Positions 19,068-52,271 are shown, numbered from the stretch's first letter. The stretch: 64,000 nucleotides of DNA from Actinomycetota bacterium (GCA_039812585.1 JBDIAW010000007.1:1162-65161); one strand, 5' to 3'. The notes: generated from the sequence alone by a model not told the origin. Translations and numbers: made by a program.

Positions 19068-19551
19068 CCTAACGTTGAGGGTAGGACTTTCAGCAGAAGT
19101 TGGCCGCGCAACACTCAGTAATCATGAGATAGTGGATAGTTAAAAGATTTTGTTGCTCGATAACTTGACAAGAGAATAATTATATTCGAGGTTGAGATTT
19201 GCCGCAATTCATTACATCAATTCAAAATTAATAAACTAGTAGTAAAATAAATTATTACTGGTAGAAAATTATGTGCACTTCTTGCCAAGCATATCATCTG
19301 TATTGTTTCGTAGAAGCTGGAGTTAAAGTTAGCACAAAAAGAGCTTGCAGGCTAATTGAGAACCTACCGAGCTAGTACAACTGCCCGAGGACCCTACCTG
19401 CATGGCATTTTGGTAGTCATTGTCTGAAAAATCGTTCGGTGATGCGAACTACATTGTATGACCAGTTGCTTAAAGAGGAATTGCTCCAATCGGGATTCTC
19501 TAAGGGTAGTATCACTAGGAGCTACTTTAGACGATAGAAAAAAGTTATGAT
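19068..19551. other. 484-bp strongly AT-rich (~30% GC) spacer between treY and treX
   Basis: No ORF of 60 aa or more. Runs such as aattaataaactagtagtaaaataaattattactgg. Possible internal promoter, sRNA or remnant of foreign DNA. Confidence 0.5.
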
Positions 19552-37110: not shown

Positions 37111-38617
37111 CTCGGCTCACCCCACCTCGCTGTGTGGGTCAATCCAGCACAGCGCACCTCTGCACTCAGTCAGGCCTGCTTTGCCACACCTTTCCCCCCT
37201 CAGGCACAGATCATGAACTGGCTGGCGTTGCCTCTGCCAGCCTGAGAACAGCAGCTTTCTGCCTCGTAGACCATGGTGGTGCGCGATCTAAGCAGCCGTG
37301 ATCACCAGGAGGGCATCCTCGCTGAGGGGGTTGGTGAAGCTGCGGGTGCCAGAGTAGGTCACTGGCTCTGCCGTGCCTACGTTTTTCCCGGTGGAAGGGT
37401 TGATCCACTGAGCTTTACCGGGCCCGGAGAGCTTACCGAGGTTAATAGTGAGATTGCGCTGAACCGGGGTGTACGCCATGATCAACGATCCGTCTGACGA
37501 ACGGGCTGCGGTGGCGTAGGTATCGTTGCTGCCTCGCTCACCGGTCAGGATCGAGCCGTCGGTGTCAGGCGCCAGCGACGCGATGGGGTAGCGCTGCATC
37601 ACGATGCCCACCATGGCTGTGTCACGTGCACCTTGGCGATCGAGTTCTTTAACTGCCATCTGGCCTGCGGAACCAGGCTGTGTGTCCCAGTTCAAGACCG
37701 ATCCACCGTAGGCCACTCCCATGGCTTCAGCGAGGGCAGCCCACCAGCCGGTGCGTCTGTTGCGGCGGACTCCGAAGTCCCACCCGGAGCCGCAGCAGGG
37801 TTCCTGGTCGTAGTGCGGCTCCATGTGAAACACGGGTTTGGCGGGGGACCAGGCTCGTTGGTTGGACACGTAGCCGTAAGGCCAGGGAGAGCTTTCAGCG
37901 CTGAATTGGAAGGAATAGAAACTGTGCCATGAACGTGACTGCATCTGGGGTGCGCTGCTTTAGTTGTGGTAAGTGATGATTGCGGCGGGGTGAGCGCTGC
38001 GAATCGCCGGCCCCAAGATGTCAGCTTGGGCGATGAACTTCGCATTGTCGTCATCTCCTCCCAGGAACCAGATGACGTTGCTCGAGTTTTTGTACCGCTG
38101 CCCCAGGAAGCGGCCGTAGGCGGCCAACTCATCGTCACAAGGCGAGCGAGTCGATCCCCCATCGCCCCACCCCCCATTATTAGCTGCCCACAACGGGTTC
38201 AGCATCAATGTGATGCCTTGTGATTGGGCATATCGCACGAGCTCATCGGCTCCTTGCCACCAGGAAGGATCAGGAGAAGTTAACGTACCGTTCAGGAAAG
38301 GTTGACCGCGCACAGTGTCTTGCGTGTAGCTGTGAAATGAGAACGACGCCATGATGGTGTTATAGCCCTGGCGTTGACGAATCTGCATGTACTGCTTGAC
38401 AGCGGGGATGGTGTAACCGCTGAATATGTTCCACCCAGTGTCGGCCACCATAAAGAACGGTTTTCCGGAGTTGTCAGCCAGATAACGTTGATCGCTGCTC
38501 ACGCTCAGAGGCCAAGTGGGAGTTCCAGTCGATGAGGGGACTCGGGATGTGGAGGGCGATGCGACCTGGCTGATCGAACCAGTGCTGTGAGGGGGGGCTC
38601 CACGAGGTCGTGGCGGT

Positions 38618-38955: not shown

Positions 38956-39336
38956 TCAGGTGACAGTCAAAGGGGTGCGCAGGCCGTCTCCAGCCATACC
39001 GGGCTTGCATTGGGCGGTGTAGGTACCCGGTTGGGTGAGCTCCACGGTCATGGTGCGCGACAGGCCGGGGGAGATGTCCTCCACCTCGCTGATGACCCGA
39101 TCACCCTCGCCCAGCAGGTACAACTCGGTGAGCTTGCTGCCGGAGTTGGTCACCGTGAACTCCACTTTCCCCTTCGCCACGCTGGTGCGCGAGAGTTGAC
39201 AAGCGTTGTCGGTGGAGGTGACGGTGACGGTGACCTTCTCGGTGGAGGCTGAGGTTGAGGTGCTGCTGCAGGCGCTCAAAGTCAACACTGCACTAGCGGC
39301 GGCGAGGGTGGGCAGGACGCGATGAAACTGGTGCAT
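38956..39336 (-). CDS. cupredoxin-like lipoprotein (EfeO N-terminal-domain-like iron uptake component)
   Basis: Lipobox LTLSAC. Small beta-sandwich with KVEFTVTNSGSKLTELYLL. Lies immediately downstream of the FTR1 permease. Confidence 0.65.
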   Translation of the reverse strand: MHQFHRVLPTLAAASAVLTLSACSSTSTSASTEKVTVTVTSTDNACQLSRTSVAKGKVEFTVTNSGSKLTELYLLGEGDRVISEVEDISPGLSRTMTVELTQPGTYTAQCKPGMAGDGLRTPLTVT

Positions 39337-39369: not shown

Positions 39370-40257
39370 TTAGCGGGCGCTGGAGATCAGCTGCGGCATT
39401 GCGGTGGGGTCGGTGACCCCCACCGGCGGGCTGGCGGGGGTACGGACTGGTCGTAGGAACGCAGGCAACACCACGGTGAGGTAGGCCAGCCAGGCGATGG
39501 CCTGAAGCCAGGTAGCGGTCGGGGTGAGGTTGAACATCCCCTTGGCGAGCACCGCATACCAGGTCGATGGGTCGATCATGTGGCTGATGTCGAAGGCCAG
39601 GCTGTTTTGCCCCGGCAGCACTCCGGCCTCCTGCAGGTCGTGGATGCCGTAGGCCAGAATCCCGGCTGCGACCAGGATCAACGCCACCCCGGTGACGCGG
39701 AAAAACAGGTGCAGGTTGATGCGGATTGCCCCCTGGTAGATCAGCACGCCGAGCACCACTGCACTACCCAGCCCCACCGCCCAGCCCAGCAGTGGCCACA
39801 TCGAGCCGACCTGTGCAGCTTGCACGGTGGCGTAGAAGAAAATCGCCGTCTCCAGGCCCTCGCGGCCTACTGCCAGGAAGGCCACGAGGGCCACTGCCAA
39901 GGCGGTTTTTCGCGTCGAGCCTGCCCCCAGTGCGCGGCTCAACCGGCCTTTGAGCTGCCCGGTCAGGGTAGCGGCGGCGGTGCGCATCCACAGCACCATG
40001 CCGGTAACAAACGCCACCGCAACCAGGGAGGCCACGCCTCCTATCAGCTCTTGGGCGCGAAAGCTCAGTGTGGAGGTGCCGTAGGTGAGCAGCGCACCCA
40101 GCGCCACCGACAGAGTTACTGCGGCGAGCACCCCGGCAGCCACCCACCGTAACGCTTCCCGCCGGCCTGTTTTGACCAGGAAGGCCACCAGAATGACCAC
40201 GACCAGGGCAGCTTCCAAACCTTCACGCAAGCCGATGAGGGCGTTACTGAGCAACAC
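39370..40257 (-). CDS. efeU: FTR1/EfeU-family high-affinity iron permease
   Basis: Two REXXE motifs (REGLEAALVV and REGLETAIFF) in a polytopic membrane protein. Confidence 0.85.
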   Translation of the reverse strand: MLLSNALIGLREGLEAALVVVILVAFLVKTGRREALRWVAAGVLAAVTLSVALGALLTYGTSTLSFRAQELIGGVASLVAVAFVTGMVLWMRTAAATLTGQLKGRLSRALGAGSTRKTALAVALVAFLAVGREGLETAIFFYATVQAAQVGSMWPLLGWAVGLGSAVVLGVLIYQGAIRINLHLFFRVTGVALILVAAGILAYGIHDLQEAGVLPGQNSLAFDISHMIDPSTWYAVLAKGMFNLTPTATWLQAIAWLAYLTVVLPAFLRPVRTPASPPVGVTDPTAMPQLISSAR

Positions 40258-40319: not shown

Positions 40320-41423
40320 TCACTCCAGGGAGTCGGCTGCTGGCACCCGCACTCGTAGCGCCCCGGGCTGCACTCGGGCTGACAGGGTGGAAGCCACCCC
40401 CACCGGGTCACCGTCGATCTGAGCCAGTTTGGGGTGAGCCAGAGTGGCCGATAACACCTGCCCCTGGTAGTGGTCAACATTGCGGTGACCACGACGACGG
40501 TGGGTGATCAACTGCACCATCACCCCCATCCAACCCACCACCGAGCGAGGGGAGAGGATCAGCGCGTCCAGCGCGCCATCATCGACTGCAGCGTTAGGCA
40601 TGAGGGAGATCCCCGCCTGGATTTTGCCGCAGTTGCCGATGAGCACGCTACGGACCCGCCCGTTGTGCACCAGCCGTTGCTCGATGCGCAACTCCAGGCG
40701 CACCCGATGCCCCCGCAAACGGCGCGCACCAGAGACCACATACGCCACCGGGCCCATACGCGCCTTGAGCTTGGCTGGGGCATGAGCCATGATCTCCGCG
40801 TCATACCCCAAACCGGTCATGACCAGAAACGCCTGCTCAGGCTGGTCGTTCAGGCTGACCCAACCCACATCGATGGTGCGATCCACCCCAGTGAGGGCCA
40901 CCTCCACAGCCGCCGCCAGATCGTCTAAGGGGTGGCCAAGATTACGAGCCAGCAGATTGCCCGTACCAGCAGGCAGCAGCCCCAACGGCACATCCCGACC
41001 GGCCAACTCCTGCGCCACGCAGCGCACCGTGCCATCGCCTCCACAGGCCATCACCAGGTCGGGTTGCTGGTGCAGCGCTTGCTGGGTCTGGCCACAGCCC
41101 GGATCTTCCGCCGTGGTCTCCACAAACTGCGGGGGTTGCCAACCCCACCGCTGGCACGCATCAGCAATCGTTGCTTGAACCTGCCCCACCGACCCATGAT
41201 CAAATTTGCTGGGATTGATGATGACAATGGCCCGTCCGGGCTGAGGGGCATTCACCCTGGTTAGCTTAGGGGCAGGCATTCGGCGCAGCCGCAGCCGATG
41301 CCGGGCTGCCTGCACGAACTGCTCCACATGAGCGCCCCAGCCTGATGCAGTTGGGCGTGCGGCAGGAAGTACAGGAGCAGAAGGGGTCGGCGGCTTTGAC
41401 AGGCCTTGGTGCTGGTGCATCAC
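40320..41423 (-). CDS. diacylglycerol kinase-family lipid kinase (YegS/BmrU type)
   Basis: AIVIINPSKF...ACGGDGTVRCVAQELAG...LLPAGTGNLLARNLG. Likely real start is the Met at 41279. Confidence 0.8.
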   Translation of the reverse strand: MMHQHQGLSKPPTPSAPVLPAARPTASGWGAHVEQFVQAARHRLRLRRMPAPKLTRVNAPQPGRAIVIINPSKFDHGSVGQVQATIADACQRWGWQPPQFVETTAEDPGCGQTQQALHQQPDLVMACGGDGTVRCVAQELAGRDVPLGLLPAGTGNLLARNLGHPLDDLAAAVEVALTGVDRTIDVGWVSLNDQPEQAFLVMTGLGYDAEIMAHAPAKLKARMGPVAYVVSGARRLRGHRVRLELRIEQRLVHNGRVRSVLIGNCGKIQAGISLMPNAAVDDGALDALILSPRSVVGWMGVMVQLITHRRRGHRNVDHYQGQVLSATLAHPKLAQIDGDPVGVASTLSARVQPGALRVRVPAADSLE

Positions 41424-41426
41424 CGT

Positions 41427-41732
41427 CTACTGTGGGAGGCCAGGAGGAGCAACAACTGGGTTACCCAGGGAGAACCCCTCCTCCAGCAGCCGGGGGGAGT
41501 AGGTGCGAAACGCGATGTGCGTTTCGGTGCGGGTTACTCCAGGCACCTTATTGAGACGGTCGGCCACCACCTCAGCGATCTGATCGTGGCTGGCGACCCG
41601 CACCAAGGCAATCAGGTCCAGATTCCCCGTCACCGAATACACCTCACTGACACCCTCCAGGTCAGCAATAGCTTGAGCCACATCGGGAATGCAATCCACT
41701 TGTGCGTTGATAAACACCATCGCGGTCACCAT
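41427..41732 (-). CDS. stand-alone Lrp/AsnC C-terminal (RAM) ligand-binding domain protein
   Basis: MVFINAQVDCIPDVAQAIADLEGVSEVYSVTGNLDLIALVRVAS; no HTH region. Start at the internal Met. Confidence 0.5.
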   Translation of the reverse strand: MVTAMVFINAQVDCIPDVAQAIADLEGVSEVYSVTGNLDLIALVRVASHDQIAEVVADRLNKVPGVTRTETHIAFRTYSPRLLEEGFSLGNPVVAPPGLPQ

Positions 41733-42049
41733 GCCAGCCCATGCTAGTGCCACCGAGGTCCTACCCCATGATGTCTGCGGCAGTGATGAGCGAGGCTCGC
41801 CAAGACTCACTGGTTCGTTCCACGAATCGGGCTGCTGGCCAGGAGTTGTTCGGGCGGCATCATGAGGACGCGCTCGGTGGTGGCTTCGGTGGACTCGGGA
41901 AGAGTCGTGAGCCGATACCCCGACTTGCGTGCCGGGGTCACGTTGTCATCTGTGTCACGGGGTCCTCATAGCAGTCGGTCTGGCACAGCTGGTGTCCGTT
42001 GCAGTGTGACGAACCAGTGTTACTTGACATAACGTGCATTATCGGCGTT

Positions 42050-42077
42050 GAAACCAACGGGAGTACAACTAGATGCA
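42050..42077 (-). terminator. weak hairpin (7-bp stem gggagta/tactccc, 14-nt loop) 100 bp downstream of ATPase stop, followed by GTTGGTTT
   Basis: gggagtacaactagatgcaactactccc. Confidence 0.25.
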
Positions 42078-42176
42078 ACTACTCCCGTCACTCGACGTGG
42101 GCGGCCGCAGCTGGTCAAAGTCATCGACGGACTATGGGGGGTCTCGCTCGAGGCTTGCCGTGCAGCGCATCTCGGC

Positions 42177-44366
42177 TCAGAGGTTCTTCACCTGACGGTA
42201 GAGATCGCGCAGTGCGGCGTCGGACATGTCGATGATGGGCTCGTACATGAACGAATTCACATGGATGTTCTCCGGCGTCATCAGCACCACAGTGTCGAGC
42301 GTGTTCACAGCCTCGGGCGTTCCTGCTCCCCGGCTCTTGAAAGCCCGGAACAGCGCTTGCGTCTGGTTCGCCACAATGGCGCCTGTGAAGACCGGGTCCG
42401 CCAACTTGTCGATCATGTACTTCTCCGCGAGTACCCTCGTGGCGATCGACAGCACGATTTTGTTCTCGAAGTTCACTCCCTCGGGCGCCGTGAGGGCGAG
42501 GTCGGCCTGCTCGATCAGAAGGTCCACCACGCGATCACCCTGCGGCGCCCACGCCTTGTGCTGCTGCTCGGGGAAGGTGTCCTTGAAGATTCGGTCGAGG
42601 TTGGCATGGGTAATAGAGTCCGAGTTTGACTTCCAGTGCAACAGCGACGTGAGCGTGATGTAGTCGGGGTCGTCCTCGCCTTTCGTGTACTCAAGGATGT
42701 TCCGCACGAACGGAATCGAGGCGATGCGCTGCATGCCGTCGGAGAAGAAGTTCACTTTGAACCCGCGTATGAACGGGTTGTTGACATGCTGAGCCTGGTT
42801 AAGGACAACCTTGGAGTCGCCCTTCTGAGCCATAAAGCACCGGTTATAGCCCACGACGCCGCGGCTGAGAAGCGTTCGGAAGAAGTCGAAGTTGTGCGTG
42901 AGCAGCACGAGCTTGAAGTCAGTGTGCTCAGCCATCTCTTTGAGGTACTGAATAATGGCGTACTTGTTCTTGTAGTCGAACGAGTCGGCAAGATCGTCGA
43001 TGACGAAGAGGGTCTCGCGGCCCACAGCCTTGCGCGTTTCCATCTCAAAGAGAACGTTGAGGATGTAAAGGGCCTTCTTCTCGCCCTGGCTCAAGACAGA
43101 CAGCAGGTCATCCCTCTCCACCCCCCTCGACTCGCCACCCTCCTCGAACTTGAAGATCAGCTTGAGCATGGCCTCCTGGCCGAGCGCAACCTTGTGCTTG
43201 TTCTCGGCACTCAGGCGAAACGGGACGAAGAAGCGGTCGTTGAAGATCCGAATGACCTTTTCCCAGTGCGTGCTCTCTTCAGCAGCCTGTTTCTCGATCT
43301 CCTTCCTGCGTTGCTCCGTACCCTTGAGGCAGGTGACGACGCGCTGGTACAGCTCCTCGCGCGTCTTCAGGTACGCCTTCCAGACCTTCTGCTGGAACGA
43401 GCCCACGTTCATGAGCTCAGGTAACAGCTCCTCTCGGTTAGCGATGAAGTTGAAGAAGTTGCGTGCGTCGACGTTTTTCTGCAGAGCCCTCTCGACCGCG
43501 TCCAGCTTCTTGCGGAGGGCATCGTCGTTCGTGATCCGTTTCTTTTCCTCGGCGATCAGCGCCTTTAGGTCGGCGTCGTTCGTGACTGTCCGCACTGTTT
43601 CTCCGTCCTGGTCGTGCAAGAGCAGTGAGTGCTTTGCGGAGAAGAAGCCGTTGTCGCCCAAACTCTTCGTGACGTTCGTCGCGTTGTAGAAGGTGAACGA
43701 ACTCCGGTTGAAGAACGGTGACTCGTCCAGGAGCTCGTTGAGGCGCTTGACATACTCAGCCAGCTCTGCCTGGACGCCTGGGGTGCGTAGGACGGCGTCG
43801 ACCTTGTCGTTGAAGAGGACGTCGTACGGCAGGTCCGCGAACCTGGTGTCATCGAGCTGGCCGACCTCGTACTCAACACGTGCTAACGCTTCGAAGAACT
43901 TGTCGGCCTCTGGGGTGAAGACCCTTGACACGGTGGCGATGACGTCCTGCTTCGTGCCGGACTGCTCGCGCAGCGCAGAGACCAGCTCGTCCCGCGCCTG
44001 GACGAGGTCGACCTGGAGGCCTTCGTACTCCCGTCGCAATGCTGCGTTGACCAGCAGAGTCGATGTGGACTCGGTAGGCCCCAATGCCTCGTCGTAGGAG
44101 AGCACGACCACGACGTCGTCCGGGTCTAGTTCGTCGCCTTTCTCGTCGGTGATGCGCCGCTCAGTATCCCTCGTCGGGAACATGCGGTCGGACGACTCCT
44201 GGCCGCTGGCGAGATCCTTGAACGTGTGGGCGAGCGACGTCTTCATCGTGCCGTTGGGAGCGTAGACCGCGACGGCGCGCCCGCTCGCGAAGTCGAACGT
44301 CGCATCCAGTTCTCGGATGCCATGGCAGTTCTTCAGCTCGACTTTGAGTTTCTCCATGGCCACCAA
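42177..44366 (-). CDS. Rad50/RloC-like ABC (SMC-type) ATPase with ~400-aa coiled-coil insertion and uncharacterised ~280-aa C-terminal domain; candidate defense/abortive-infection protein
   Basis: Walker A AVYAPNGTMKTSLAHTF at the N-terminus. Long charged helical region. ABC signature LSQGEKKALYILNVLF, Walker B LFVIDDLADSF, H-loop LLTHNF. ~58% GC against the ~67% background. Confidence 0.8.
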   Translation of the reverse strand: MVAMEKLKVELKNCHGIRELDATFDFASGRAVAVYAPNGTMKTSLAHTFKDLASGQESSDRMFPTRDTERRITDEKGDELDPDDVVVVLSYDEALGPTESTSTLLVNAALRREYEGLQVDLVQARDELVSALREQSGTKQDVIATVSRVFTPEADKFFEALARVEYEVGQLDDTRFADLPYDVLFNDKVDAVLRTPGVQAELAEYVKRLNELLDESPFFNRSSFTFYNATNVTKSLGDNGFFSAKHSLLLHDQDGETVRTVTNDADLKALIAEEKKRITNDDALRKKLDAVERALQKNVDARNFFNFIANREELLPELMNVGSFQQKVWKAYLKTREELYQRVVTCLKGTEQRRKEIEKQAAEESTHWEKVIRIFNDRFFVPFRLSAENKHKVALGQEAMLKLIFKFEEGGESRGVERDDLLSVLSQGEKKALYILNVLFEMETRKAVGRETLFVIDDLADSFDYKNKYAIIQYLKEMAEHTDFKLVLLTHNFDFFRTLLSRGVVGYNRCFMAQKGDSKVVLNQAQHVNNPFIRGFKVNFFSDGMQRIASIPFVRNILEYTKGEDDPDYITLTSLLHWKSNSDSITHANLDRIFKDTFPEQQHKAWAPQGDRVVDLLIEQADLALTAPEGVNFENKIVLSIATRVLAEKYMIDKLADPVFTGAIVANQTQALFRAFKSRGAGTPEAVNTLDTVVLMTPENIHVNSFMYEPIIDMSDAALRDLYRQVKNL

Positions 44367-44421
44367 CCTAGGGCGTGACGGTTCAGACGCAAGCGGCGTC
44401 CGGGCTCAGCAACTGCCGCGC

Positions 44422-44745
44422 CTAGAAACAGGTGCGAGAGCTGGTCGCCCCCCTTGCATTGCGGTGTTTCCGCAGGACACAGGCGAATGGCCCCTGGGCC
44501 CGGGGTCCGACGTGCACCGGAGCAGCCAGATATCGCCTGCTCAACAGGGGCTGGAGCGCTTCCACAAGGCGGTCGCCGTTGCTGAACAGGTCAGCCTGAT
44601 CGCTGAAACCCATCGCCACAGCAAGTTCTTGGGTCACTCTTGCGGGGCCGGACCACTCCACGAGGCCCGAACACAGGATGGCTCTCTCACGGTCCGTCAG
44701 GTCCAACTGAAATGCGCTCGCCCACGGACACAGCGTTGCACGCAA
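44422..44745 (-). CDS. hypothetical small protein immediately upstream of the ABC ATPase
   Basis: 107-aa ORF with no recognisable motif, on the same strand and 55 bp upstream of the ATPase start. Confidence 0.3.
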   Translation of the reverse strand: MRATLCPWASAFQLDLTDRERAILCSGLVEWSGPARVTQELAVAMGFSDQADLFSNGDRLVEALQPLLSRRYLAAPVHVGPRAQGPFACVLRKHRNARGATSSRTCF

Positions 44746-44919
44746 TTCGACAGATAAGCGATGTCACGCGCCCAAGCGATGAGTTGCTCCCAGCTTCGCC
44801 CGCTCTCCCGGAACCGTAGGTCGCCGGAAGATCACCAACTCGTCGCAGTCCAACTTGTCGCTTCGTCAGTTCTTGGTGGAGGAGATCAGTGCGGTGCTCA
44901 CGCCATGGATTGGTTCAGG

Positions 44920-45686
44920 TTAAGCGCTAGCCAAAGCCTGCTGGAGCGCGGTGGTCAGTGCCAGTAAGAGGAAGGTGACGAAGGCGGCTGCGTTGGCCTC
45001 ATGGTCGCTGGTGCGTAGGGCCGCGTAGTAGTCCTGTTGCCGGTCGCGGATTACGGTCTCCACGGGAAGGTAGGCCAGCAGGGGTTGCCAGCGGGTCAGG
45101 ATCAGCGACTGCCACAGGCGGCCCAGGCGGCCATTACCGTCGGTGAAGGGGTGAATGAACTCAAGTTCGTAGTGCACCAGACAGCTGCTGACCAGGGGAT
45201 GTTCATCGGTGGAGCTCAGCCATCCCAGCAGATCCCCCACCAGGATGGGTACGCGCGCCGCAGGGGGAGCCATGTGGATCAGTTGATCGTCACGGAAGAC
45301 CCCTACTCCACCGCAGCGAAAATGGCCCGCAGGCTCGGCCAACCCGGCCATGAGTAGGCCATGAGCGGTCAGCAGGTCTTCCACACGGACGGGATCCCAC
45401 GTGGCATTGCCTCATAGGCAGCCAGCGCATTGGTCACCTCCAGGATCTCGCGGGGATGACCCAACACTGGCTTGCCCTCGATGACTGCACTGACCTGCTC
45501 CACGGTCAGGCAGTTGGCTTCGATGGCTAGGGAGGCATGGATGCTGCGGATACGGTTGCCCCGCTGCAACTGCGGTGAGTTGACCCGTTCGCCTAACGCG
45601 CGTAAACCACCTACCAGTTCGGCAATCTCGGCCACCTGAGCGGTGATGGTGCTGCTGTGGGTGAAGGGGGGCGCATAGTCCGCCAC
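44920..45686 (-). pseudogene. Fic/DOC-family protein disrupted by a frameshift
   Basis: The N-terminal half (45369..45686, ...TVEQVSAVIEGKPVL) and C-terminal half (44920..45384, HPFTDGNGRLGRLW Fic motif) are in different frames and overlap by 16 nt. Confidence 0.6.
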
Positions 45687-45704
45687 GGGCTACTCCTTGG
45701 TGGG

Positions 45705-46631
45705 TCAAAGCTGGGCCTGCCTTGAGGGTAGCCCCCCGGCACGTAGGTGCAGATGGAGGTAGGCGGCGGCCTCGCAGACCGGGTCGGGTAGGGGGTGGAC
45801 CCCGGTGAGAGCGGTGCGGTGGGAGCCTCCGGCCCAGACCATAACGGGAGGGTGTAGGGCGCTCAGGTGGTCGACCACCAGTTGAGCCTGCTTGACAGTG
45901 CGGGCGGTGGGCACGCCGATGACGGCAGCCGTCACGGGTGCATGGGGCTGGTGGGCGCGACCCGCAGCCTGGACCCACTCGGTGACCGGGACATCTGCCC
46001 CCAGGTACACCACGTTGACACCGAGGCGGCGCAGGCAGGTGGCAAAAGCGAACAGCACCAACTCGTGACGCTCCCCCGGTGGGGCGCCCACCAACACCAT
46101 CGGTGCTCCAGGGCTCACCTGGGCGCCCGCCTGATCGAACAACCCACCCAGGGCGCGCATCAAACCAGCGCTGGCGAAATGCTCGGCGGCCACTGAGAGG
46201 TGGCCGGTTACCCACGCTGCGCCCAAGCGTTGTAACTGCGGTTGCAGCCAGTTCTGCGCGACGTGTTCAAACGCAGCGCTGGCCAAGGCCTGCTCTACGG
46301 TCAGGGCCAACACGCCCGGGTCCAGAGACATCGCCGTTGCTACCAGGTCCGGGTTTGGCAGGGGGTGCTGCCCAGCGGCCTGCAGTTCCCCCGTGGAGTC
46401 GGTTGAGCTGTTCAGCACGGCTTGCGCGGCCTGGGCGGTGGGAACTCCAGCGGCCACCAATGCGGCCATGTGGCGCAGGGCTGCCACCTGGGTGGGGTCG
46501 TAAAGACGATAGTTACCGCCAGAACGCGCAGGTTCCACGATGTGGTAGCGACGCTCCCATGCACGCAATGTGGCTTGGGCCACCCCGGTCAGGGCACTGA
46601 CCTGCTTGACGGTGTAGCTAGGGCTGATCAT
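45705..46631 (-). CDS. MerR-family regulator with C-terminal cobalamin-binding domain (CarH/LitR-like light-responsive regulator)
   Basis: YTVKQVSALTGVAQATLRAWERRY HTH. Rossmann-like B12-binding region PGERHELVLFAFATCLRRLGVNVVYLGADVP. Divergent from the carotenoid operon. Confidence 0.75.
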   Translation of the reverse strand: MISPSYTVKQVSALTGVAQATLRAWERRYHIVEPARSGGNYRLYDPTQVAALRHMAALVAAGVPTAQAAQAVLNSSTDSTGELQAAGQHPLPNPDLVATAMSLDPGVLALTVEQALASAAFEHVAQNWLQPQLQRLGAAWVTGHLSVAAEHFASAGLMRALGGLFDQAGAQVSPGAPMVLVGAPPGERHELVLFAFATCLRRLGVNVVYLGADVPVTEWVQAAGRAHQPHAPVTAAVIGVPTARTVKQAQLVVDHLSALHPPVMVWAGGSHRTALTGVHPLPDPVCEAAAYLHLHLRAGGLPSRQAQL

Positions 46632-46674
46632 GGGGCTCGCTTTCACCAACGACTCCAGGCAGGGTAGCAAAGCC

Positions 46675-46749
46675 TGGACAAAGGTTGAACAGATCAGCTA
46701 GGGTCGACCACAACCTTGGACAAAGATTGGACAAACGATCCGTGGACAC
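46675..46749. promoter_or_regulatory. TGGACAA direct repeats with ~10-11 bp periodicity in divergent carH/crt promoter region (candidate CarH operator)
   Basis: cTGGACAAAGgTTGAACAgatc...cTTGGACAAAGaTTGGACAAAcgatccgTGGACAct. Confidence 0.35.
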
Positions 46750-46810
46750 TTCAGTGCACTCTCCCCTGACGGTCAGCCCCAGGAGGGATGCTGAGGAGAG
46801 TGATCAGGTA

Positions 46811-48421
46811 GTGCTGCTCAACGAGGTGGGGCAGCCGATCGGGCAGGCACCGCGCAGCAGCATCCATTCCCCCCACACACCGCTACATCTGGCCTTCTCC
46901 ACCTACCTATTCAATGCTCGCGGCGAGGTGCTGCTCACCCGACGAGCCCTGAGTAAGAAAACCTGGCCTGGAGTATGGACTAACTCCTGCTGCGGGCATC
47001 CCCAGCCCGGCGAGGAACTGGAGGCCGCCATTCGTCGGCGCATCCGGCAGGAGTTGGGGCTGCGCATAGGCCGCTTGATCCCTCTGCTGCCCGATTTTCG
47101 CTACCGCGCCACTGACTCCAATGGGATCGTGGAAAACGAGATCTGCCCTGTTTATGCGGCGGTGCTCAAAGACCACCAGCCACCGTTGATGCCTGACCCC
47201 GATGAGGTGGCTGAATGCGCCTGGGTGCCCTGGCCCCACGTTCTTGCCGCCGTGGCCGCCACTCCGCAGGTGTACAGCCCTTGGGCGGCCCAGCAAATCG
47301 CCCTGCTGGGCCAACACCCCTTGCCTGATCTGAACCCCCCGCTACAGCCGCCTGTCTTAAGCCTGCAGGAGTTCACCGCTGAGGTGGATGCCCTCCTTGC
47401 CCAGCAAACTAGCGCCTTGATCCAGGAGTGGGCCAGTTATACCAAGCAGTTGCGGCTGGACATTCTGCCCGAGGATCTGCCGGCCTGGTTGGAACACCTG
47501 CTGGTGGGGCAGGGTAAACGCCTGCGGGTCATGATGACCTTCTGGGGTTTTGCTGCGGCGGGAGGTCGGGCGGACTCCCCCGGTTATCACCACGCAGTGC
47601 GCGCTGCTGCCGCATTGGAGACCTTGCACTTGTTCGCGCTGATTCACGACGACGTGATGGACGAATCCAGCATGCGTCGAGGTTTTCCGGCTGCCCATGT
47701 TCAGGCCGCTCAGTGGCACCGGCAGGCCAACGCTCGCGGGGACGCGCCGGTGTTTGGCCGCAACCTTGCCATTTTGCTGGGGGATCTGGCCCACACCACC
47801 GCCGACCGCTTGGCCCAAGACCTGCCCGAGGCGATGCGCCAGCAGTGGTATGCCCTCTCGGTTGAACTCATTGCTGGTCAGCGGGCGGACCTGACCGCTG
47901 CGGCGGCGGGTCGACGCGAGCAGGCGCACGCCCAGCAGGTGGCTGACATCAAATCGGGCCACTACACCATCACCCGCCCGTTGCATTTGGGGGCCTGTGC
48001 GGCGCAGGCTAACTCAGCAGTGATGGCTGCTTTGACGCAGTACGCCACCCATGTGGGCCGGGCGTTTGCCTGGCGAGATGACTACCTCGGCGTGTGGGGA
48101 GATCCAGTGGTGACTGGCAAACCAGCCGGGGAGGATCTGCTGGAGGCTAAAGCGACGGTTCTGCTCAGCGTGGCCCAGCAGCAGATGCGCGGCTGGCCAG
48201 CGCACCTGCTGGCCCGGGTGGGGACTGCAGGGTTTGGTCCTTTGGACGCAGCAGCTTTGGCCCAGAACATGCACGAGGCGGGTGTGGACTCCCAGTTGGA
48301 GGCAATGATCGCTGCCGAGGTGGAGGCAGCTGTTGATGCGCTAAACCCGCGTGTTCTGCCAGCAAGCGCGGTGGCTGGCCTGGGCCAAGCGGCCCAGGCC
48401 ATCGCCTGGAGAGACGCGTGA
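46811..48421 (+). CDS. fused isopentenyl-diphosphate isomerase (type 1) / geranylgeranyl diphosphate synthase
   Basis: N-terminus VVLLNEVGQPIG...LHLAFSTYLFNARGEVLLTRRALSKKTWPGVWTNSCCGHP closely resembles E. coli Idi. C-terminus is a polyprenyl synthase with IHDDVMDE. One continuous frame. GTG 46811 has a GAGGAGAG RBS. Confidence 0.8.
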   Translation: MLLNEVGQPIGQAPRSSIHSPHTPLHLAFSTYLFNARGEVLLTRRALSKKTWPGVWTNSCCGHPQPGEELEAAIRRRIRQELGLRIGRLIPLLPDFRYRATDSNGIVENEICPVYAAVLKDHQPPLMPDPDEVAECAWVPWPHVLAAVAATPQVYSPWAAQQIALLGQHPLPDLNPPLQPPVLSLQEFTAEVDALLAQQTSALIQEWASYTKQLRLDILPEDLPAWLEHLLVGQGKRLRVMMTFWGFAAAGGRADSPGYHHAVRAAAALETLHLFALIHDDVMDESSMRRGFPAAHVQAAQWHRQANARGDAPVFGRNLAILLGDLAHTTADRLAQDLPEAMRQQWYALSVELIAGQRADLTAAAAGRREQAHAQQVADIKSGHYTITRPLHLGACAAQANSAVMAALTQYATHVGRAFAWRDDYLGVWGDPVVTGKPAGEDLLEAKATVLLSVAQQQMRGWPAHLLARVGTAGFGPLDAAALAQNMHEAGVDSQLEAMIAAEVEAAVDALNPRVLPASAVAGLGQAAQAIAWRDA

Positions 48422-49929
48422 GACGCTCCGGCTCTGCGCACCCTGGAGGAGGCAAAGGCAGGGTGGTCGTGGTCGGAGCGGGCTTGGCGGGGCTATCCGC
48501 TGCGCTGCACCTGGCCGGAGCGGGGCATGAGGTGATGGTGGTGGAGCGCGAGGCTATCCCTGGGGGGCGTAGCGGGTGGCGCGAGCAGGATGGTTTCGGG
48601 TTCGACACCGGCCCGGTGGTGTTCACCATGGTGGACCTGCTGGAACAAGCGTTTGCTGCGGTGGGGCGGCGCAGCAGCGAGTTTGTGGCCTTGCGCCTGC
48701 TGGATCCGGCCTACCACGCCTTCTTCGCCGATGACTCCCGTCTGCTCATTCGTCCCGGGTATGAAAAGATGCGAGCCGAGATTGCCGCGCAGTGCGGAGC
48801 AAAGGATGCGCGCGCTTTCGACCAGTTTCACGCCTGGCTCAAACAGCTCTACGAACTGGAAATGCCGCACTTTATCGACGTGAGTTTCAACTCCCCGCTG
48901 GGATTGCTGCGCTCCCCCGCCGCCGCTGCTCGGTTGCTGCGCCTGGGAGGGTTCGCCCGGCTCGGATCGACCGTGCAGCAGCGTTTTGCCGACGAGCGGT
49001 TACACCGGGTCTTCAGCTTCCAGGCCATGTATGCGGGGTTGGCTCCAGCCCAAGCACTGGCCCTTTACGCGGTGATCACCTACATGGACTCCATTGAGGG
49101 GGTGTGGTTTCCCGAGGGCGGGATGAATGCCGTGCCTCAAGCCATGGCTGCTGCGGCTGGGCAGGCCGGCGTGCAGTTCGCCTGGTCCACCCGCGTGGAG
49201 CACATCAACCCCCGCCGTGCAGGCCAGCCGGCTCGGGTCATCCTCGCTGGAGGGGAGCACCTGCGCGCCGATGCGGTGGTCATCACAGCCGATCTTCCCA
49301 CCGCTTATGAGCAGCTTCTGCCCCACACCCGCCCACCCCGGGTCGCGCGTGCAGGCTCCTACTCCCCCAGCGCATTGGTGTGGCATCTAGGAGTAGCCGG
49401 TCCTCTGCCCGACCAGGTGGGTCACCACAACATCCACTTCGGGGCGGCCTGGGAGCAGGCATTCGATGATCTGCTGCACCGGGGGGTGCCGATGGCCGAT
49501 CCGTCGCGGTTTGTCGCCATCCCCTCCCTGAACCACCCCCAGGCGGCCCCGCCGGGGCATCACAGCCTGTACGTGCTCGAACCGGTGCCTAATCTGCAGG
49601 TGGGTCGGGAGGTGGCGTGGCAGCAGGAAGGTCCTCGGCTGCGTGAACGCATCCTGGCCTGGATGGAGCAGTTTGGCTACCCCACGCAAATCCTCACCGA
49701 GCATCTGGTCACGCCGGTGGACTGGCAGCAGCAAGGCATGGCCGCAGGGACTCCGTTTTCCCTGGCGCACACCTTTGGCCAGACAGGGCCATTCCGCCCC
49801 AAGAATATCGACCGACGCCTGCCGGGGGTGGTGTTTGCTGGGTCGGGAACCACCCCAGGAGTGGGAATCCCCATGGTGTTGATTTCGGGCAAACTGGCCG
49901 CCCAACGGGTGCAGGAGATGCTGGCATGA
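48418..49929 (+). CDS. crtI: phytoene desaturase
   Basis: VVVVGAGLAGLSAALHLAGAGHEVMVVE FAD-binding fold. Typical CrtI length. Overlaps the idi-crtE stop. Confidence 0.85.
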   Translation: MRRSGSAHPGGGKGRVVVVGAGLAGLSAALHLAGAGHEVMVVEREAIPGGRSGWREQDGFGFDTGPVVFTMVDLLEQAFAAVGRRSSEFVALRLLDPAYHAFFADDSRLLIRPGYEKMRAEIAAQCGAKDARAFDQFHAWLKQLYELEMPHFIDVSFNSPLGLLRSPAAAARLLRLGGFARLGSTVQQRFADERLHRVFSFQAMYAGLAPAQALALYAVITYMDSIEGVWFPEGGMNAVPQAMAAAAGQAGVQFAWSTRVEHINPRRAGQPARVILAGGEHLRADAVVITADLPTAYEQLLPHTRPPRVARAGSYSPSALVWHLGVAGPLPDQVGHHNIHFGAAWEQAFDDLLHRGVPMADPSRFVAIPSLNHPQAAPPGHHSLYVLEPVPNLQVGREVAWQQEGPRLRERILAWMEQFGYPTQILTEHLVTPVDWQQQGMAAGTPFSLAHTFGQTGPFRPKNIDRRLPGVVFAGSGTTPGVGIPMVLISGKLAAQRVQEMLA

Positions 49930-50792
49930 GCCGCACACCTACCGCCCTTTTGGCTCAGGGGTACCGGCAGTGCGCGCAGCTGACCCGCAGGCACGGCACC
50001 ACCTACTACTGGGGGGCGCGCCTGTTGAGCCCATCCCAACGTCGGGATGTGTACGCGGTGTATGCGCTGTGTCGATTGGCCGATGACCTGGTGGATGAGC
50101 CGCCCACCGGGCCTGATGCAGCTGACTCAGCGCAGCGATTAGCAGACTTTCGCCGCACTTTTTTTCACGCGCTGCACCAGGGCCAGGCTGACCAGCCGGT
50201 GATGGCGGCCATCATCGCCAGTATCACGGCTCGAGGCATCGATCCCGAGTGTTTTGAACGGTTTTTTGACGCGATGGCCGCCGATCTCACCCACACCACC
50301 TGGGGCAGCTGGCAGCAGTTGCGCGATGACTACATGGAGGGCTCCGCTGCAGTGATCGGGGAGATGATGCTGCCGGTGCTGCAGCCCCTCAGCTCCCAAG
50401 CCAAGCAGCCTGCGCGAGCATTGGGCCACGCCTTTCAGCTGACCAACTTTCTGCGCGACGTGGCCGAGGATTTGGATCGCGGTCGGGTCTACCTCCCGCA
50501 GGAGGACTTAGCCCGACATGGAGCCGACCCGTGGCTTCGTCAGGTGACCCCGGCCTGGCGTGCCCTGATGGCCGAGCAGATCCAGCGCAACCGGCAGCTG
50601 TACACGCAGGCCCAGCTGGGTTTGCCGTTGCTGCCTGCGTCATCGCGTCGGTGTGTGAGCACGGCTTTAACCCTCTATCGCCGTATCCTCGATCGGATCG
50701 AAGCTGCCGACTACAACGTGTTCGCTGGGCGCATTCGGGTGCCCAGCCGGGAAAAGGCGTGGGTCAGCCTGCGCGCGTTAGCGACGCGCTAA
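49926..50792 (+). CDS. crtB: phytoene synthase
   Basis: YCRLADDLVDE and squalene/phytoene synthase motifs. ATGA overlap with crtI. Confidence 0.85.
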   Translation: MSRTPTALLAQGYRQCAQLTRRHGTTYYWGARLLSPSQRRDVYAVYALCRLADDLVDEPPTGPDAADSAQRLADFRRTFFHALHQGQADQPVMAAIIASITARGIDPECFERFFDAMAADLTHTTWGSWQQLRDDYMEGSAAVIGEMMLPVLQPLSSQAKQPARALGHAFQLTNFLRDVAEDLDRGRVYLPQEDLARHGADPWLRQVTPAWRALMAEQIQRNRQLYTQAQLGLPLLPASSRRCVSTALTLYRRILDRIEAADYNVFAGRIRVPSREKAWVSLRALATR

Positions 50793-52271
50793 CAGGCCAC
50801 GCATCGGCACGCTCCACAGGTCGTGGCCGGCGGTGCTCCAGCGCTGCAGCAGGGTGTTGGCGGCCAAGAATCCGGTCGTGGCCGCACGCTCCATCAGAGC
50901 AACGGGGTAGTCGCAGCGCACCCAGTCCCCCGCCACCACCAAGTGGGGCGCGGGAGTGCTTACTCCCGGTCGAGCCGCCCAGGGCTTGGGGTCGATGAGG
51001 GTGCAGTCATCCCGGAGGAGAACCTCCTGATGCACCACCTGGGCCGAACAGGTCTCGGGATAGACCCGATGCAGCTGCTCCAGCAGCTGCCCCACCACGG
51101 CAGTGCTGTCCTGCGTGCAGGCGTAGGCGTGCAGCTCCACCACACTGCCCCGGTGCTTCGCGCTCCAGGTGGCTGCGCCGCGCTCGAAGCGCTCCAGCAC
51201 CGAGACATTATCCAGCGGCCCATACCCGGCGGTCCCCAGGAACGCAGCACGACCAGGCTCCACGTGACGGTCTAACCACAAGCGCACCACAACAAACGGT
51301 GGGGCGTTGCGAGTGGCGGCCACCGCGCGCTGCCAGGGAGCCAAACCCGCATCCGGCAAGGCAGCGCAGAGGGCGCGGGCTTGACGCGGATCGGTAGCCA
51401 ACACCACCGCATCTGCACTGAGCTGGCCGCTGGGCGTATGCACCGAGGCACCAGTAGTGGAGAGTTCAAGGTGATGCACCGGGCAGTCCACCTGGATCTG
51501 CACCCCCCTGCTGGCCAGGTAACTGCCCAGCGGAGCCCACAGCGTGGTGTCGTAGTCATCTTCGGGCACCTCGAACAGCAAACCCTCCGCCGAGCCTAAG
51601 AAGTAGGTGTGAAACATCGCCACCAACTCCCCGGCGGCAAACTCGGTGGGGTCGGCGAAAAACGAGCGGGCAAAGACCTCCAAGGCTAGGTCCCTGGCTG
51701 CAGCGGGGAAGTGGAGGCGCTGCAGAAATTGCTCCGCTGATTGCCCGTCATAGTTGCTGTAGGTGTCGGGGAAACGCACTCGCAGCAGTTCCAACGCCGC
51801 AGGCAGATTCACCCGCGCCAGCCCGGCCAGGCTAAACGCGGGAGAGCGGGCGACAAAGTGCAGCATCGACCAGGGTGGGGTGCGTGCCAAACTGGTGAAG
51901 GTATCGCGCATCCCGTCGGGGCGTTGCAGTGGGTAGTCATCGATCGGGCGCAGAAACCCCAGCGTGGGGTCAATGCGGGCAAGTAGGGCGCGCAGGTTGT
52001 AGTACTGGCGGAAGAAAGCGTGAAAACCCCGACTCATGGTGCGCGTTGTCCCCGGCAGAGGCCACGCGGCCACCCGGCCTCCTAAGCGGGGGGTGGCCTC
52101 CAGCAGGCTCACCCGCACGCCTGCCTCGGCCAGGCCCGTGGCGGCAGCCAGCCCGGCGATCCCACCTCCAACAACGATCACCGACTGCTGGTTCTCAATC
52201 TGGGCGCGGCCCGGTGGCGCCCGATGCAACACGGCCCGGCGGTCCCGTCCGGGCAGGCCAGTGGTAGTCAT
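50778..52271 (-). CDS. carotenoid-associated FAD-dependent oxidoreductase (CrtU/CrtD-like desaturase family)
   Basis: VIVVGGGIAGLAAATGLAEAGVRVSLLE dinucleotide-binding motif. ~500 aa. Located in the crt cluster. Confidence 0.55.
   Translation of the reverse strand: MTTTGLPGRDRRAVLHRAPPGRAQIENQQSVIVVGGGIAGLAAATGLAEAGVRVSLLEATPRLGGRVAAWPLPGTTRTMSRGFHAFFRQYYNLRALLARIDPTLGFLRPIDDYPLQRPDGMRDTFTSLARTPPWSMLHFVARSPAFSLAGLARVNLPAALELLRVRFPDTYSNYDGQSAEQFLQRLHFPAAARDLALEVFARSFFADPTEFAAGELVAMFHTYFLGSAEGLLFEVPEDDYDTTLWAPLGSYLASRGVQIQVDCPVHHLELSTTGASVHTPSGQLSADAVVLATDPRQARALCAALPDAGLAPWQRAVAATRNAPPFVVVRLWLDRHVEPGRAAFLGTAGYGPLDNVSVLERFERGAATWSAKHRGSVVELHAYACTQDSTAVVGQLLEQLHRVYPETCSAQVVHQEVLLRDDCTLIDPKPWAARPGVSTPAPHLVVAGDWVRCDYPVALMERAATTGFLAANTLLQRWSTAGHDLWSVPMRGLLARR

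What the first reader, a model, noticed from the sequence alone, without database searches (positions are those of the whole stretch)
41811..45700. Stand-alone Rad50/RloC-like ABC ATPase in a small degraded island: candidate uncharacterised defense system
A 729-aa protein (42177..44366) has the ABC/SMC architecture: a Walker A motif at the extreme N-terminus, a ~400-aa charged helical coiled-coil insertion, then signature, Walker B and H-loop. This is followed by ~280 aa with no recognisable nuclease, TOPRIM or HNH motif. This layout matches anticodon-nuclease (PrrC/RloC), Lamassu/Septu/Gabija-type and ABC-3C conflict-system ATPases, but no canonical partner gene is present. Its GC content (~58%) is below the surrounding ~67%. 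It is flanked by a frameshifted Fic toxin-family gene, a tiny orphan ORF and a truncated Lrp-like fragment, which is typical of a defense or mobile island. No zinc hook (CxxC) was seen in the coiled coil, so it is not a classical RloC. The C-terminal domain could be a novel effector.
Basis: partly seen in the sequence, partly recalled or inferred. Interest (0 to 1): 0.75.

Follow-up and report, generated by a model that had tools for sequence, protein, structure and literature searches.

The report
Stand-alone ABC ATPase–HEPN defence candidate (PDC-S46)
The gene is an intact, horizontally acquired copy of a widespread single-gene family that PADLOC already lists as the untested phage-defence candidate PDC-S46, and its "unknown" tail models as a HEPN (RNase-type) domain, so it resembles the anticodon nucleases PrrC and RloC but belongs to neither.

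Summary
ORF 42177..44366(-) is real and intact, and probably starts at the ATG at 44357 (726 aa). It has an SMC/Rad50-like ABC ATPase head split by a 279-aa helical insert with no CxxC. It has no conserved partner gene in 80 related loci. Its neighbours are a frameshifted, truncated SoFic-like gene, an orphan ORF and an Lrp fragment that keeps only the ligand-binding domain.

Best reading: an autonomous, NTP-gated abortive-infection RNase of the ABC–HEPN kind. It is not a member of PrrC or RloC, because defining features of both fail. No experiment supports this yet.

The parts
42177..44357 (-). PDC-S46 family gene (726 aa plus stop). The ORF can be extended to the TTG at 44366.
   Evidence: PDC-S46 model, E 2.4e-271, full length; dN/dS about 0.1.
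44070..44357 (-). N-terminal half of the ABC ATPase head (aa 1-96). It includes Walker A, YAPNGTMKTS, at 44235-44264. Met replaces the second P-loop Gly in 139 of 142 members.
43233..44069 (-). Helical insert (aa 97-375): two long helices (105-133 and 334-375) plus a globular helical part with a small beta-hairpin. No CxxC zinc hook. Presumed sensor or dimerisation module.
42846..43232 (-). C-terminal half of the ABC head (aa 376-504): signature LSQGE (43080-43094), Walker B/D-loop LFVIDDLADSFD (42975-43010), H-loop LTHNFDF (42882-42902).
42180..42845 (-). C-terminal HEPN-fold domain (aa 505-726). Invariant or near-invariant residues: R552, N553, E556, H574, K633, R641, E645, Q665, T666, H699, N701, E706, D710.
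   Evidence: No Pfam or PADLOC family other than PDC-S46.
42636..42704 (-). RNILEYTKGEDDPDYITLTSLLH, the R-x3-E-x17-H motif proposed as the catalytic core.
   Evidence: PrrC/RloC triad as described in PMC2610378. hhalign aligns RN..E in register with PrrC.
42228..42278 (-). TPENIHVNSFMYEPIID, the most conserved stretch of the family. It is a low-confidence loop in the model. Function unknown; an alternative source of the catalytic His (H699).
44920..45686 (-). SoFic-like Fic gene, frameshifted near 45369-45384 and lacking about 90 C-terminal residues. The HPFTDGNGR motif is still present. Probably a pseudogene.
   Evidence: The same sequence appears in an independent Logan assembly.
44422..44745 (-). 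Orphan 107-aa ORF between Fic and the ATPase. Not shown to be a gene.
   Evidence: Not called in L001.
41427..41810 (-). Lrp/AsnC-family remnant. Only the ligand-binding (RAM) domain is present; the HTH part is missing from this frame.

Best explanation
The gene encodes a self-contained ABC ATPase–HEPN fusion of the PDC-S46 family.

Proposed mechanism (inferred, not shown): the SMC/Rad50-like head binds NTP and dimerises. The 279-aa helical insert acts as the sensor for an infection cue, such as a phage protein, an abnormal DNA structure or loss of an R-M partner. The resulting change in the head releases or pairs the C-terminal HEPN domains. These then cut cellular RNA, most plausibly tRNA as PrrC and RloC do, and stop translation so that the phage cannot complete its cycle (abortive infection).

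The catalytic centre is proposed to be the invariant R552-N553-x-x-E556 helix together with H574, or alternatively H699. This would be a non-canonical HEPN site comparable to the PrrC/RloC Arg-x3-Glu…His triad.

In this genome the gene is an intact, horizontally acquired single-gene cassette beside a decayed SoFic-like gene. It has no R-M partner, so it would have to work autonomously.

For: - Full-length match to the PADLOC PDC-S46 model. PDCs were derived from genes embedded in BREX, DISARM or type I R-M systems.
- AlphaFold model with pLDDT 90. The head matches SMC, Rad50 and cohesin heads and the defence ATPases PtuA and AriA.
- Invariant R552, near-invariant N553 and H574, and E556 in 121 of 142 members. 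The motif RN[LI]xE[YK]T is shared with PrrC and aligned in register by hhalign (triad per PMC2610378).
- No conserved neighbour in 80 loci.
- Homologues lie inside type I R-M operons in L019 and L024 and directly after hsdR in L045 and L037. Type III methylases are adjacent in 6 loci. Fic genes are adjacent in 3 loci. Resolvases, relaxases and VapC are also nearby.
- The family is on 27 plasmids but nearly absent from phage records.
- dN/dS is about 0.1.
- The window copy keeps every invariant residue.
Against: - No member of the family has been tested. PDCs are explicitly untested.
- The canonical HEPN Rx4-6H motif is absent.
- The C-domain alone shows no significant sequence or profile similarity to PrrC, and matches no HEPN, PrrC or RloC model.
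- The E-to-H spacing (17) is outside the reported PrrC (31) and RloC (36-52) ranges.
- I had no model coordinates, so I could not check that R552, E556 and H574 are close in space.
- Met in place of the second P-loop Gly could alter or weaken NTP hydrolysis.
- In this window there is no R-M or other defence partner, and the neighbouring accessory genes are decayed.
Confidence: 0.5

Rival explanations
1. The HEPN-fold domain is non-catalytic, an RNA-, nucleotide- or protein-binding module as in MtlR or the nucleotidyltransferase-linked HEPNs. The protein would then be an SMC-like sensor or clamp that acts on DNA, or signals to effectors encoded elsewhere such as R-M enzymes acting in trans.
Against: The polar residues R552, N553, H574, K633, R641, E645, H699, N701, E706 and D710 are invariant or nearly so across phyla, which is more typical of an active site than of a binding surface. 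No partner is conserved in 80 loci, so an effector in cis is excluded, and an effector in trans would have to be universal.
Confidence: 0.2
2. The gene serves conflicts between mobile elements rather than phage defence. Examples are plasmid exclusion, post-segregational killing, or protecting a plasmid's leading region during conjugation.
For: 27 plasmid copies, 11 of them on conjugative plasmids. In a Providencia plasmid the gene lies beside an antirestriction gene, an hsdM fragment and tra genes. In an Acinetobacter plasmid it lies between T4SS genes and a recombinase. Relaxases and resolvases neighbour it in chromosomal loci.
Against: Most copies are chromosomal, including the window copy, which has no mobile-element genes beside it. 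The R-M embedding matches known anti-phage back-up systems such as PrrC.
Confidence: 0.15
3. It is a housekeeping RecF/RecN/SbcC-like DNA-repair ATPase.
For: Weak sub-threshold matches to SMC_N and to the RecF model over the signature and Walker B region. Structural match to Rad50/SMC heads.
Against: The distribution is patchy: 67-90% identity across different actinobacterial genera (dS 0.66 to Marmoricola), while the adjacent regulator has at most 57% identity to anything. There is no conserved synteny. DNA homology stops at the ORF ends. The gene is absent beside crt-LitR in two relatives. It is plasmid-borne, carries a HEPN-fold tail, and the scores are far below the family cut-offs (26 against 172 bits for RecF).
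Confidence: 0.03
4. In this particular genome the copy is a silent relic, intact in sequence but no longer expressed or used, like its decayed neighbours.
For: Adjacent Fic and Lrp genes are broken. No sigma-70-like promoter was found upstream. No R-M partner is present in the window.
Against: The ORF is uninterrupted over 726 codons and keeps all invariant residues. dN/dS is 0.11 against its closest genomic relative. The promoter scan is a crude consensus search that does not cover actinobacterial promoters.
Confidence: 0.1

Closest known systems
PADLOC PDC-S46 (single-gene phage defence candidate; Payne et al., bioRxiv 10.1101/2024.01.29.577857)
   Same: End-to-end HMM match (900 bits). A single gene without a partner. 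Relatives are embedded in type I R-M operons, which is how PDCs were defined.
   Different: Nothing differs; this is a member. The catalogue entry carries no function, domain annotation or experimental test.
PrrC anticodon nuclease (E. coli prr locus)
   Same: ABC ATPase followed by a C-terminal RNase-type domain. The Walker A begins Y-A-x-N-G. Walker B is 'DD'. The RN[LI]xE[YK]T helix is followed by a conserved His. Some relatives sit between hsdM and hsdR as prrC does.
   Different: PrrC is about 400 aa with no helical insert. It has a normal G-K-T P-loop and an E-to-H spacing of 31. It is nearly always embedded in a type I R-M system. Here there is a 279-aa insert, Met in the P-loop, a spacing of 17 and about 150 extra C-terminal residues. 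Most loci, including this one, have no R-M neighbour. The C-domains show no significant sequence similarity.
RloC (wobble-nucleotide-excising anticodon nuclease)
   Same: A Rad50-like ABC head split by a long helical insert, a C-terminal ACNase/HEPN domain with an Arg-x3-Glu…His pattern, mostly not linked to R-M, and an occasional Fic/Doc neighbour.
   Different: No CxxC zinc hook in 0 of 142 members. The insert is partly globular rather than one long coiled coil. The spacing lies outside X36-52. The Pfam AAA_13 match is sub-threshold and confined to the signature and Walker B region.
AF0298-type HEPN domains (PDB 2hsb) and AbiV
   Different: Those are small stand-alone or MNT-associated HEPN proteins, not ABC fusions. 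Sequence identity is only 5%. Residue equivalences were not checked.
ABC ATPases of Septu (PtuA), PARIS (AriA) and Lamassu (LmuB)
   Same: The same head fold with helical inserts. PtuA and AriA are structural matches; weak PADLOC matches to LmuB, AriA and PtuA cover only short stretches.
   Different: Those need a separate effector gene (PtuB, AriB, LmuA). Here the effector-like domain is fused and no partner is conserved.

Membership tests
PADLOC PDC-S46 | Full-length match to the family HMM | tested here: met
   E 2.4e-271, 900.5 bits, residues 4-729 against profile positions 1-718 of 719. The C-domain alone also matches.
PADLOC PDC-S46 | Single-gene system with no obligate partner | tested here: met
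   no neighbour family is shared by more than 8 of 80 loci, and that family is unrelated ABC transporters. DNA homology ends at the ORF.
PADLOC PDC-S46 | Demonstrated anti-phage activity | not testable with these tools
   PDCs are described as 145 untested candidates. No paper mentions PDC-S46.
PrrC | Match to the PrrC family model over the whole protein | tested here: not met
   the PrrC HMM matches only residues 444-532 (E 4.3e-7); full-length hhalign probability 79%, driven by the ABC part. One search shows what a true PrrC scores (489 bits).
PrrC | Compact ABC domain without a coiled-coil insert (about 400 aa) | tested here: not met
   279-aa insert, 726 aa in total.
PrrC | Catalytic Arg-x3-Glu…His triad in the C-domain | tested here: inconclusive
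   R552-x3-E556-x17-H574 is conserved (142, 121 and 141 of 142) and RN..E aligns in register. The C-domain-only profile comparison is not significant, and spatial proximity was not checked.
PrrC | Embedded in a type I R-M operon (hsdM-hsdS-prrC-hsdR) | tested here: not met
   Not met in the window. Met only in a minority of relatives (L019, L024; adjacent in L037, L045).
RloC | Coiled-coil insert with a CxxC zinc hook | tested here: not met
   0 of 142 members have CxxC in the insert. The insert is partly globular.
RloC | Arg-X3-Glu-X36-52-His motif (PMC2610378) | tested here: not met
   The spacing to H574 is 17 and to H699 is 142.
RloC / Pfam AAA_13 | Pfam AAA_13 match above the gathering score | tested here: not met
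   35.1 bits against a cut-off of 36, covering residues 422-500 only.
HEPN superfamily | Four-helix up-down HEPN fold | tested here: met
HEPN superfamily | Rx4-6H catalytic motif | tested here: not met
   No conserved His lies 5-7 residues after R552 or R641. Position 647 (R641+6) is His in only 15 of 142 members.
SMC/Rad50/RecN/RecF housekeeping ATPases | Family-model match above threshold, and conserved, vertically inherited locus | tested here: not met
   SMC_N 26.9 bits against a cut-off of 40; RecF 26 against 172. No synteny, and a pattern of horizontal transfer.
Septu / Lamassu / Gabija / PARIS / ABC-3C | Conserved partner effector gene next to the ATPase | tested here: not met
   Only weak partial HMM matches to LmuB, AriA and PtuA.
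SoFic (the neighbouring gene) | Intact full-length Fic ORF | tested here: not met
   Frameshift near 45369-45384, and profile positions 270-361 are missing.

The most novel reading that the evidence does not exclude
PDC-S46 is a third, previously undescribed branch of ABC–HEPN anticodon-nuclease-like defence proteins beside PrrC and RloC. It is found across many bacterial phyla, works as a fully autonomous single gene, and uses a non-canonical HEPN active site (R-N-x-x-E plus a distal His, no Rx4-6H). Its NTP switch has a P-loop that carries Met where all classical P-loops have Gly. The invariant TPENIH-NSFMYEP-D loop could be a new substrate-recognition or gating element.
Probability: 0.3. 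Interest if true: 0.6.

Novelty: new variant of a known kind. Interest (0 to 1): 0.45.

Why it matters
If the model is right, a family with hundreds of 50%-identity clusters across many bacterial phyla and on plasmids would join PrrC and RloC as a translation-targeting abortive-infection nuclease. It needs no partner, so it is easy to transplant and test. Its non-canonical HEPN site and Met-substituted P-loop would show how far both motifs can drift while function is kept. It would also give one of PADLOC's 145 untested candidates a concrete set of mutations to make. For this genome alone the finding is modest: one intact, horizontally acquired defence-type gene beside a dead Fic gene.

Tried and rejected
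- Pfam, NCBIfam and PADLOC scans of the C-terminal 220 aa, for the window protein and for 34 family members, found nothing but PDC-S46.
- phmmer against PDB sequences found only SMC/Rad50 signature regions.
- Foldseek of the C-domain against the PDB found nothing significant. The AFDB libraries were not available.
- hhalign of the C-domain profile against a PrrC C-domain profile was not significant (probability below 1%). The PrrC alignment was shallow (76-92% identity). It was seeded with a PrrC sequence recalled from memory, used only as a search query after it scored 489 bits on PADLOC's PrrC model.
- A test for an internal duplication in the C-domain found none.
- I considered that the 107-aa ORF is the missing HTH half of the Lrp gene, split by insertion of the cassette. 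This is rejected: there is no Pfam match even at E 10 and no homologue anywhere.
- Searches for flanking repeats, att-like sites, tRNA genes, Rfam families, promoters and terminators around the cassette found nothing meaningful.
- Island borders could not be set precisely from close relatives. The nearest relatives of the flanking regulator are only 57% identical (Propionibacteriaceae), and their synteny ends at that gene.
- Literature searches for PDC-S46, ABC-HEPN, RloC-like and AAA_13 gave no paper on this family. The HEPN paper's supplement is held only as an index.
Full report
**Observation.** The ORF 42177..44366 on the minus strand exists (729 aa from a TTG). All homologues align from its fourth residue, so the real start is most likely the ATG at 44357. 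That gives 726 aa, identical to database protein P0001.

The ABC motifs are present and conserved in an alignment of 142 diverse family members (A1, 33-89% identity):
- Walker A, Y-A-[PS]-N-G-x-M-K-[TS]-S (44235-44264).
- Signature L-S-x-G-E.
- Walker B/D-loop, hhhh-D-D-I-A-D-S-F-D-Y-K-N-K-Y-A-I.
- H-loop, L-T-H-N-F-D-F.

One oddity is that Met replaces the second glycine of the P-loop in 139 of 142 members.

Pfam sees only sub-threshold AAA_13 and SMC_N matches. phmmer against PDB sequences finds only the signature and Walker B region of SMC and Rad50.

**Structure.** An AlphaFold2 model built on A1 has mean pLDDT 90. The head (aa 1-96 and 376-504) is split by a 279-aa helical insert. The insert has two long helices (105-133 and 334-375) and a globular helical part with a small hairpin.

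Foldseek against the PDB returns SMC, cohesin, condensin and Rad50 heads, and the defence ATPases PtuA (Septu and retron complexes) and AriA. None of the 142 members has CxxC in the insert, so the absence of a zinc hook holds for the whole family.

**The C-terminal domain.** Residues 505-726 match no Pfam, NCBIfam or PADLOC model other than the family's own. This was tested on the window protein and on 34 members.

- The HEPN toxins 7ae2, 5yep and 8xdj.
- Sacsin HEPN and Roquin.
- Csm6 and Csx1.
- RnlA and LsoA.
- MtlR.
- The kanamycin nucleotidyltransferase C-domain.

The canonical Rx4-6H motif is absent. The conserved polar residues are:
- R552 (142 of 142), N553 (136), E556 (121, plus 8 Asp), then H574 (141) and K576. 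This is RNILEYTKGEDDPDYITLTSLLH, 42636-42704.
- K633, R641 and E645 on the longest helix.
- Q665 and T666.
- The most conserved stretch of the protein, T-P-E-N-I-H699-x-N-S-F-M-Y-E-P-I-x-D. This is a low-confidence loop in both models.

**Comparison with PrrC and RloC.** The catalytic triad is Arg320-x3-Glu324…His356 in PrrC, and Arg-X3-Glu-X36-52-His in RloC (PMC2610378). Both C-domains are classed as divergent HEPN domains fused to ABC ATPases, often found near R-M systems and Fic/Doc toxins (PMC3710099).

I seeded a search with a PrrC sequence recalled from memory. It scored 489 bits on PADLOC's PrrC model. All comparisons then used only the database proteins the search returned (P0270-P0389).

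Full-length profile-profile alignment gives probability 79% and E 1.6e-5. It places the family's IPFVRNLiEYT on PrrC's FTLLRNLYEKT in register. The C-domains alone do not align significantly. The spacing to the His (17) differs from PrrC (31) and RloC (36-52).

The resemblance to the triad is therefore a motif-level lead, not a demonstrated homology.

A tentative mapping, not tested, would be:
- E556 in helix 2.
- H574 in the insert between helices 2 and 3.
- R641 in helix 3.

I had no access to model coordinates, so I could not check which residues are neighbours in space.

**Family identity.** PADLOC-DB matches the protein end to end to PDC-S46 (E 2.4e-271, 900 bits). [quoted passage not shown] They are stated to be untested (bioRxiv 10.1101/2024.01.29.577857). 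No paper in the library mentions PDC-S46.

Weaker PADLOC matches cover only parts of the ABC region (PDC-S06, mad8, PrrC, AbiLi, LmuB, AriA, PtuA). NCBI names many homologues "phage infection protein".

**Distribution and mobility.**
- The family is large: 781 clusters at 50% identity with E ≤ 1e-30, nearly all about 720 aa and full length.
- It spans many phyla: Actinomycetota, Pseudomonadota, Acidobacteriota, Planctomycetota, Bacteroidota, Nitrospirota, Thermotogota and CPR bacteria.
- The window protein is 86-90% identical to proteins of Knoellia, Nostocoides/Tetrasphaera and Marmoricola. The adjacent MerR/B12 regulator has no relative above 57% identity, the nearest being Propionibacteriaceae. 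That contrast indicates recent horizontal transfer.
- DNA similarity to other actinobacterial loci stops within about 15 bp of the ORF ends (42165-44384).
- No flanking repeats, tRNA genes or integrase are present.
- dN/dS is 0.09-0.19.
- GC is 0.59, but GC3 is 0.83 and GC at codon positions 1 and 2 is 0.47. The low GC reflects amino-acid composition, not a low-GC donor.
- 27 plasmids carry full-length copies, 11 of them conjugative. One of 50,697 phage records and about 12 of 2.9 million viral contigs carry a copy, several of them near contig ends.

**Genomic context of relatives.** Across 80 loci no neighbouring family is shared by more than 8 loci, and that one is unrelated ABC transporters. 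Recurrent neighbours, confirmed with Pfam, are:
- Resolvases (6 loci).
- Type III Mod methylases (6 loci).
- TrwC relaxases (4 loci).
- HsdR (4 loci) and HsdM (3 loci).
- Fic (3 loci, including the window).
- PIN/VapC and DUF2130.

Four loci place the gene in or beside a type I R-M operon on the same strand:
- L019: hsdM – PDC-S46 – DUF1016/YhcG nuclease – GmrSD – hsdS – hsdR.
- L024: hsdM – DUF1016 – PDC-S46 – unknown – AAA_21 ATPase – hsdR.
- L045: the gene follows hsdS-hsdR directly.
- L037: the gene follows hsdS-hsdR after a YgjP-like gene.

This is the PrrC-like arrangement, but only in a minority of loci.

**Context in the window.** All of the following genes are on the minus strand, listed from high to low coordinates:

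| Coordinates | Gene |
|---|---|
| 45705-46631 | LitR-type MerR/B12 regulator, beside a carotenoid cluster |
| 45369-45686 | Fic N-terminal piece |
| 44920-45384 | Fic core |
| 44422-44745 | Orphan ORF |
| 42177-44357 | ATPase (PDC-S46) |
| 41427-41810 | Lrp remnant |
| 40320-41423 | Diacylglycerol-kinase-like gene |
| 39370-40257 | FTR1 iron permease |
| 38956-39336 | Cupredoxin-like protein |

Joining the two Fic ORFs extends the SoFic profile match to positions 23-269 of 361 and raises the score from 98.6 to 118.3 bits. It is therefore one gene with a frameshift and a missing C-terminus. The same sequence is present in an independent Logan assembly.

The Lrp ORF matches only the ligand-binding half of the profiles.

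In two Propionibacteriaceae relatives the crt-LitR block is conserved, but what follows it differs and contains none of these genes. The accessory segment is about 4.3 kb. No other defence-type gene lies within about 10 kb. "Defence island" is therefore generous.

**Interpretation.** The best-supported reading (confidence about 0.5) is an autonomous ABC ATPase–HEPN abortive-infection nuclease.
- The NTP-binding head and the helical insert sense a cue.
- They license the fused HEPN domain to cut RNA.
- tRNA is the most plausible target, by analogy with PrrC and RloC.

It is not a member of PrrC: there is no full-length match, an insert is present, and it is not embedded here. It is not a member of RloC: there is no zinc hook, the spacing is wrong, and the AAA_13 match is sub-threshold. 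It does plausibly work like them.

Rivals are:
- A non-catalytic HEPN domain in an SMC-like sensor (0.2).
- A role in conflicts between mobile elements rather than phage defence (0.15).
- A silent relic in this host (0.1).
- A housekeeping repair ATPase (0.03), essentially excluded by the patchy distribution, lack of synteny and plasmid carriage.

**Verdict.** The family is already catalogued as PDC-S46. The tail is HEPN-like rather than unrecognisable. The domain sizes and the GC argument were off.

I rate novelty as a new variant of a known kind: ABC–HEPN, beside PrrC and RloC, in a family that is catalogued but uncharacterised. Interest is moderate (0.45).

Noticed in passing
window 16800-22146 (minus strand): A block with GC of about 0.45 in a genome of about 0.64 GC. 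It holds two large genes whose products match glycogen debranching enzyme GlgX/TreX (E 5.5e-78) and maltooligosyl-trehalose synthase TreY (E 9.5e-117). This is a much stronger compositional anomaly than the finding itself and probably a foreign trehalose-synthesis cassette.
   Followed up: partly
window 37288-37944 and 37960-38502 (minus strand): Two adjacent ORFs match consecutive parts of the Pfam Apiosidase-like catalytic domain (profile 1-185 and 195-318). This looks like another split or frameshifted gene a few kb from the broken Fic and Lrp genes.
   Followed up: no
window 45705-52271; loci L082-L084: A carotenoid cluster (IDI/NUDIX-polyprenyl synthase fusion, phytoene desaturases, phytoene synthase) sits next to a MerR/B12-binding LitR/CarH-type regulator. 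The arrangement is conserved in Propionibacteriaceae relatives.
   Followed up: partly
window 45705-46631: The regulator's closest database relatives are only 57% identical (Tessaracoccus and other Propionibacteriaceae). The host lineage is therefore poorly represented in public data.
   Followed up: partly
window 44422-44745 (minus strand): A 107-aa ORF (GC3 0.71) lies in the 550-bp gap upstream of the ATPase. It has no family match and no homologue in about 100 fetched loci, and it was not called in the Logan contig. Its status as a gene is open.
   Followed up: partly
L019 4444-17435; L024 22-10889: In two metagenome-assembled genomes the PDC-S46 homologue shares the inside of a type I R-M operon with a DUF1016/YhcG PD-(D/E)XK nuclease, and with either GmrSD or an AAA_21 (AbiEii-like) ATPase. 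These are multi-layer embedded defence cassettes.
   Followed up: partly
L087 (Providencia plasmid NZ_CP097292.1): The homologue lies in a region with an hsdM fragment, an antirestriction gene, umuD and tra genes. This recalls the reported linkage of some RloC genes to the anti-restriction factor ArdC.
   Followed up: no
window 27989-30325 (minus strand): A 778-aa ORF with high GC3 and no Pfam match at E ≤ 1e-5.
   Followed up: no
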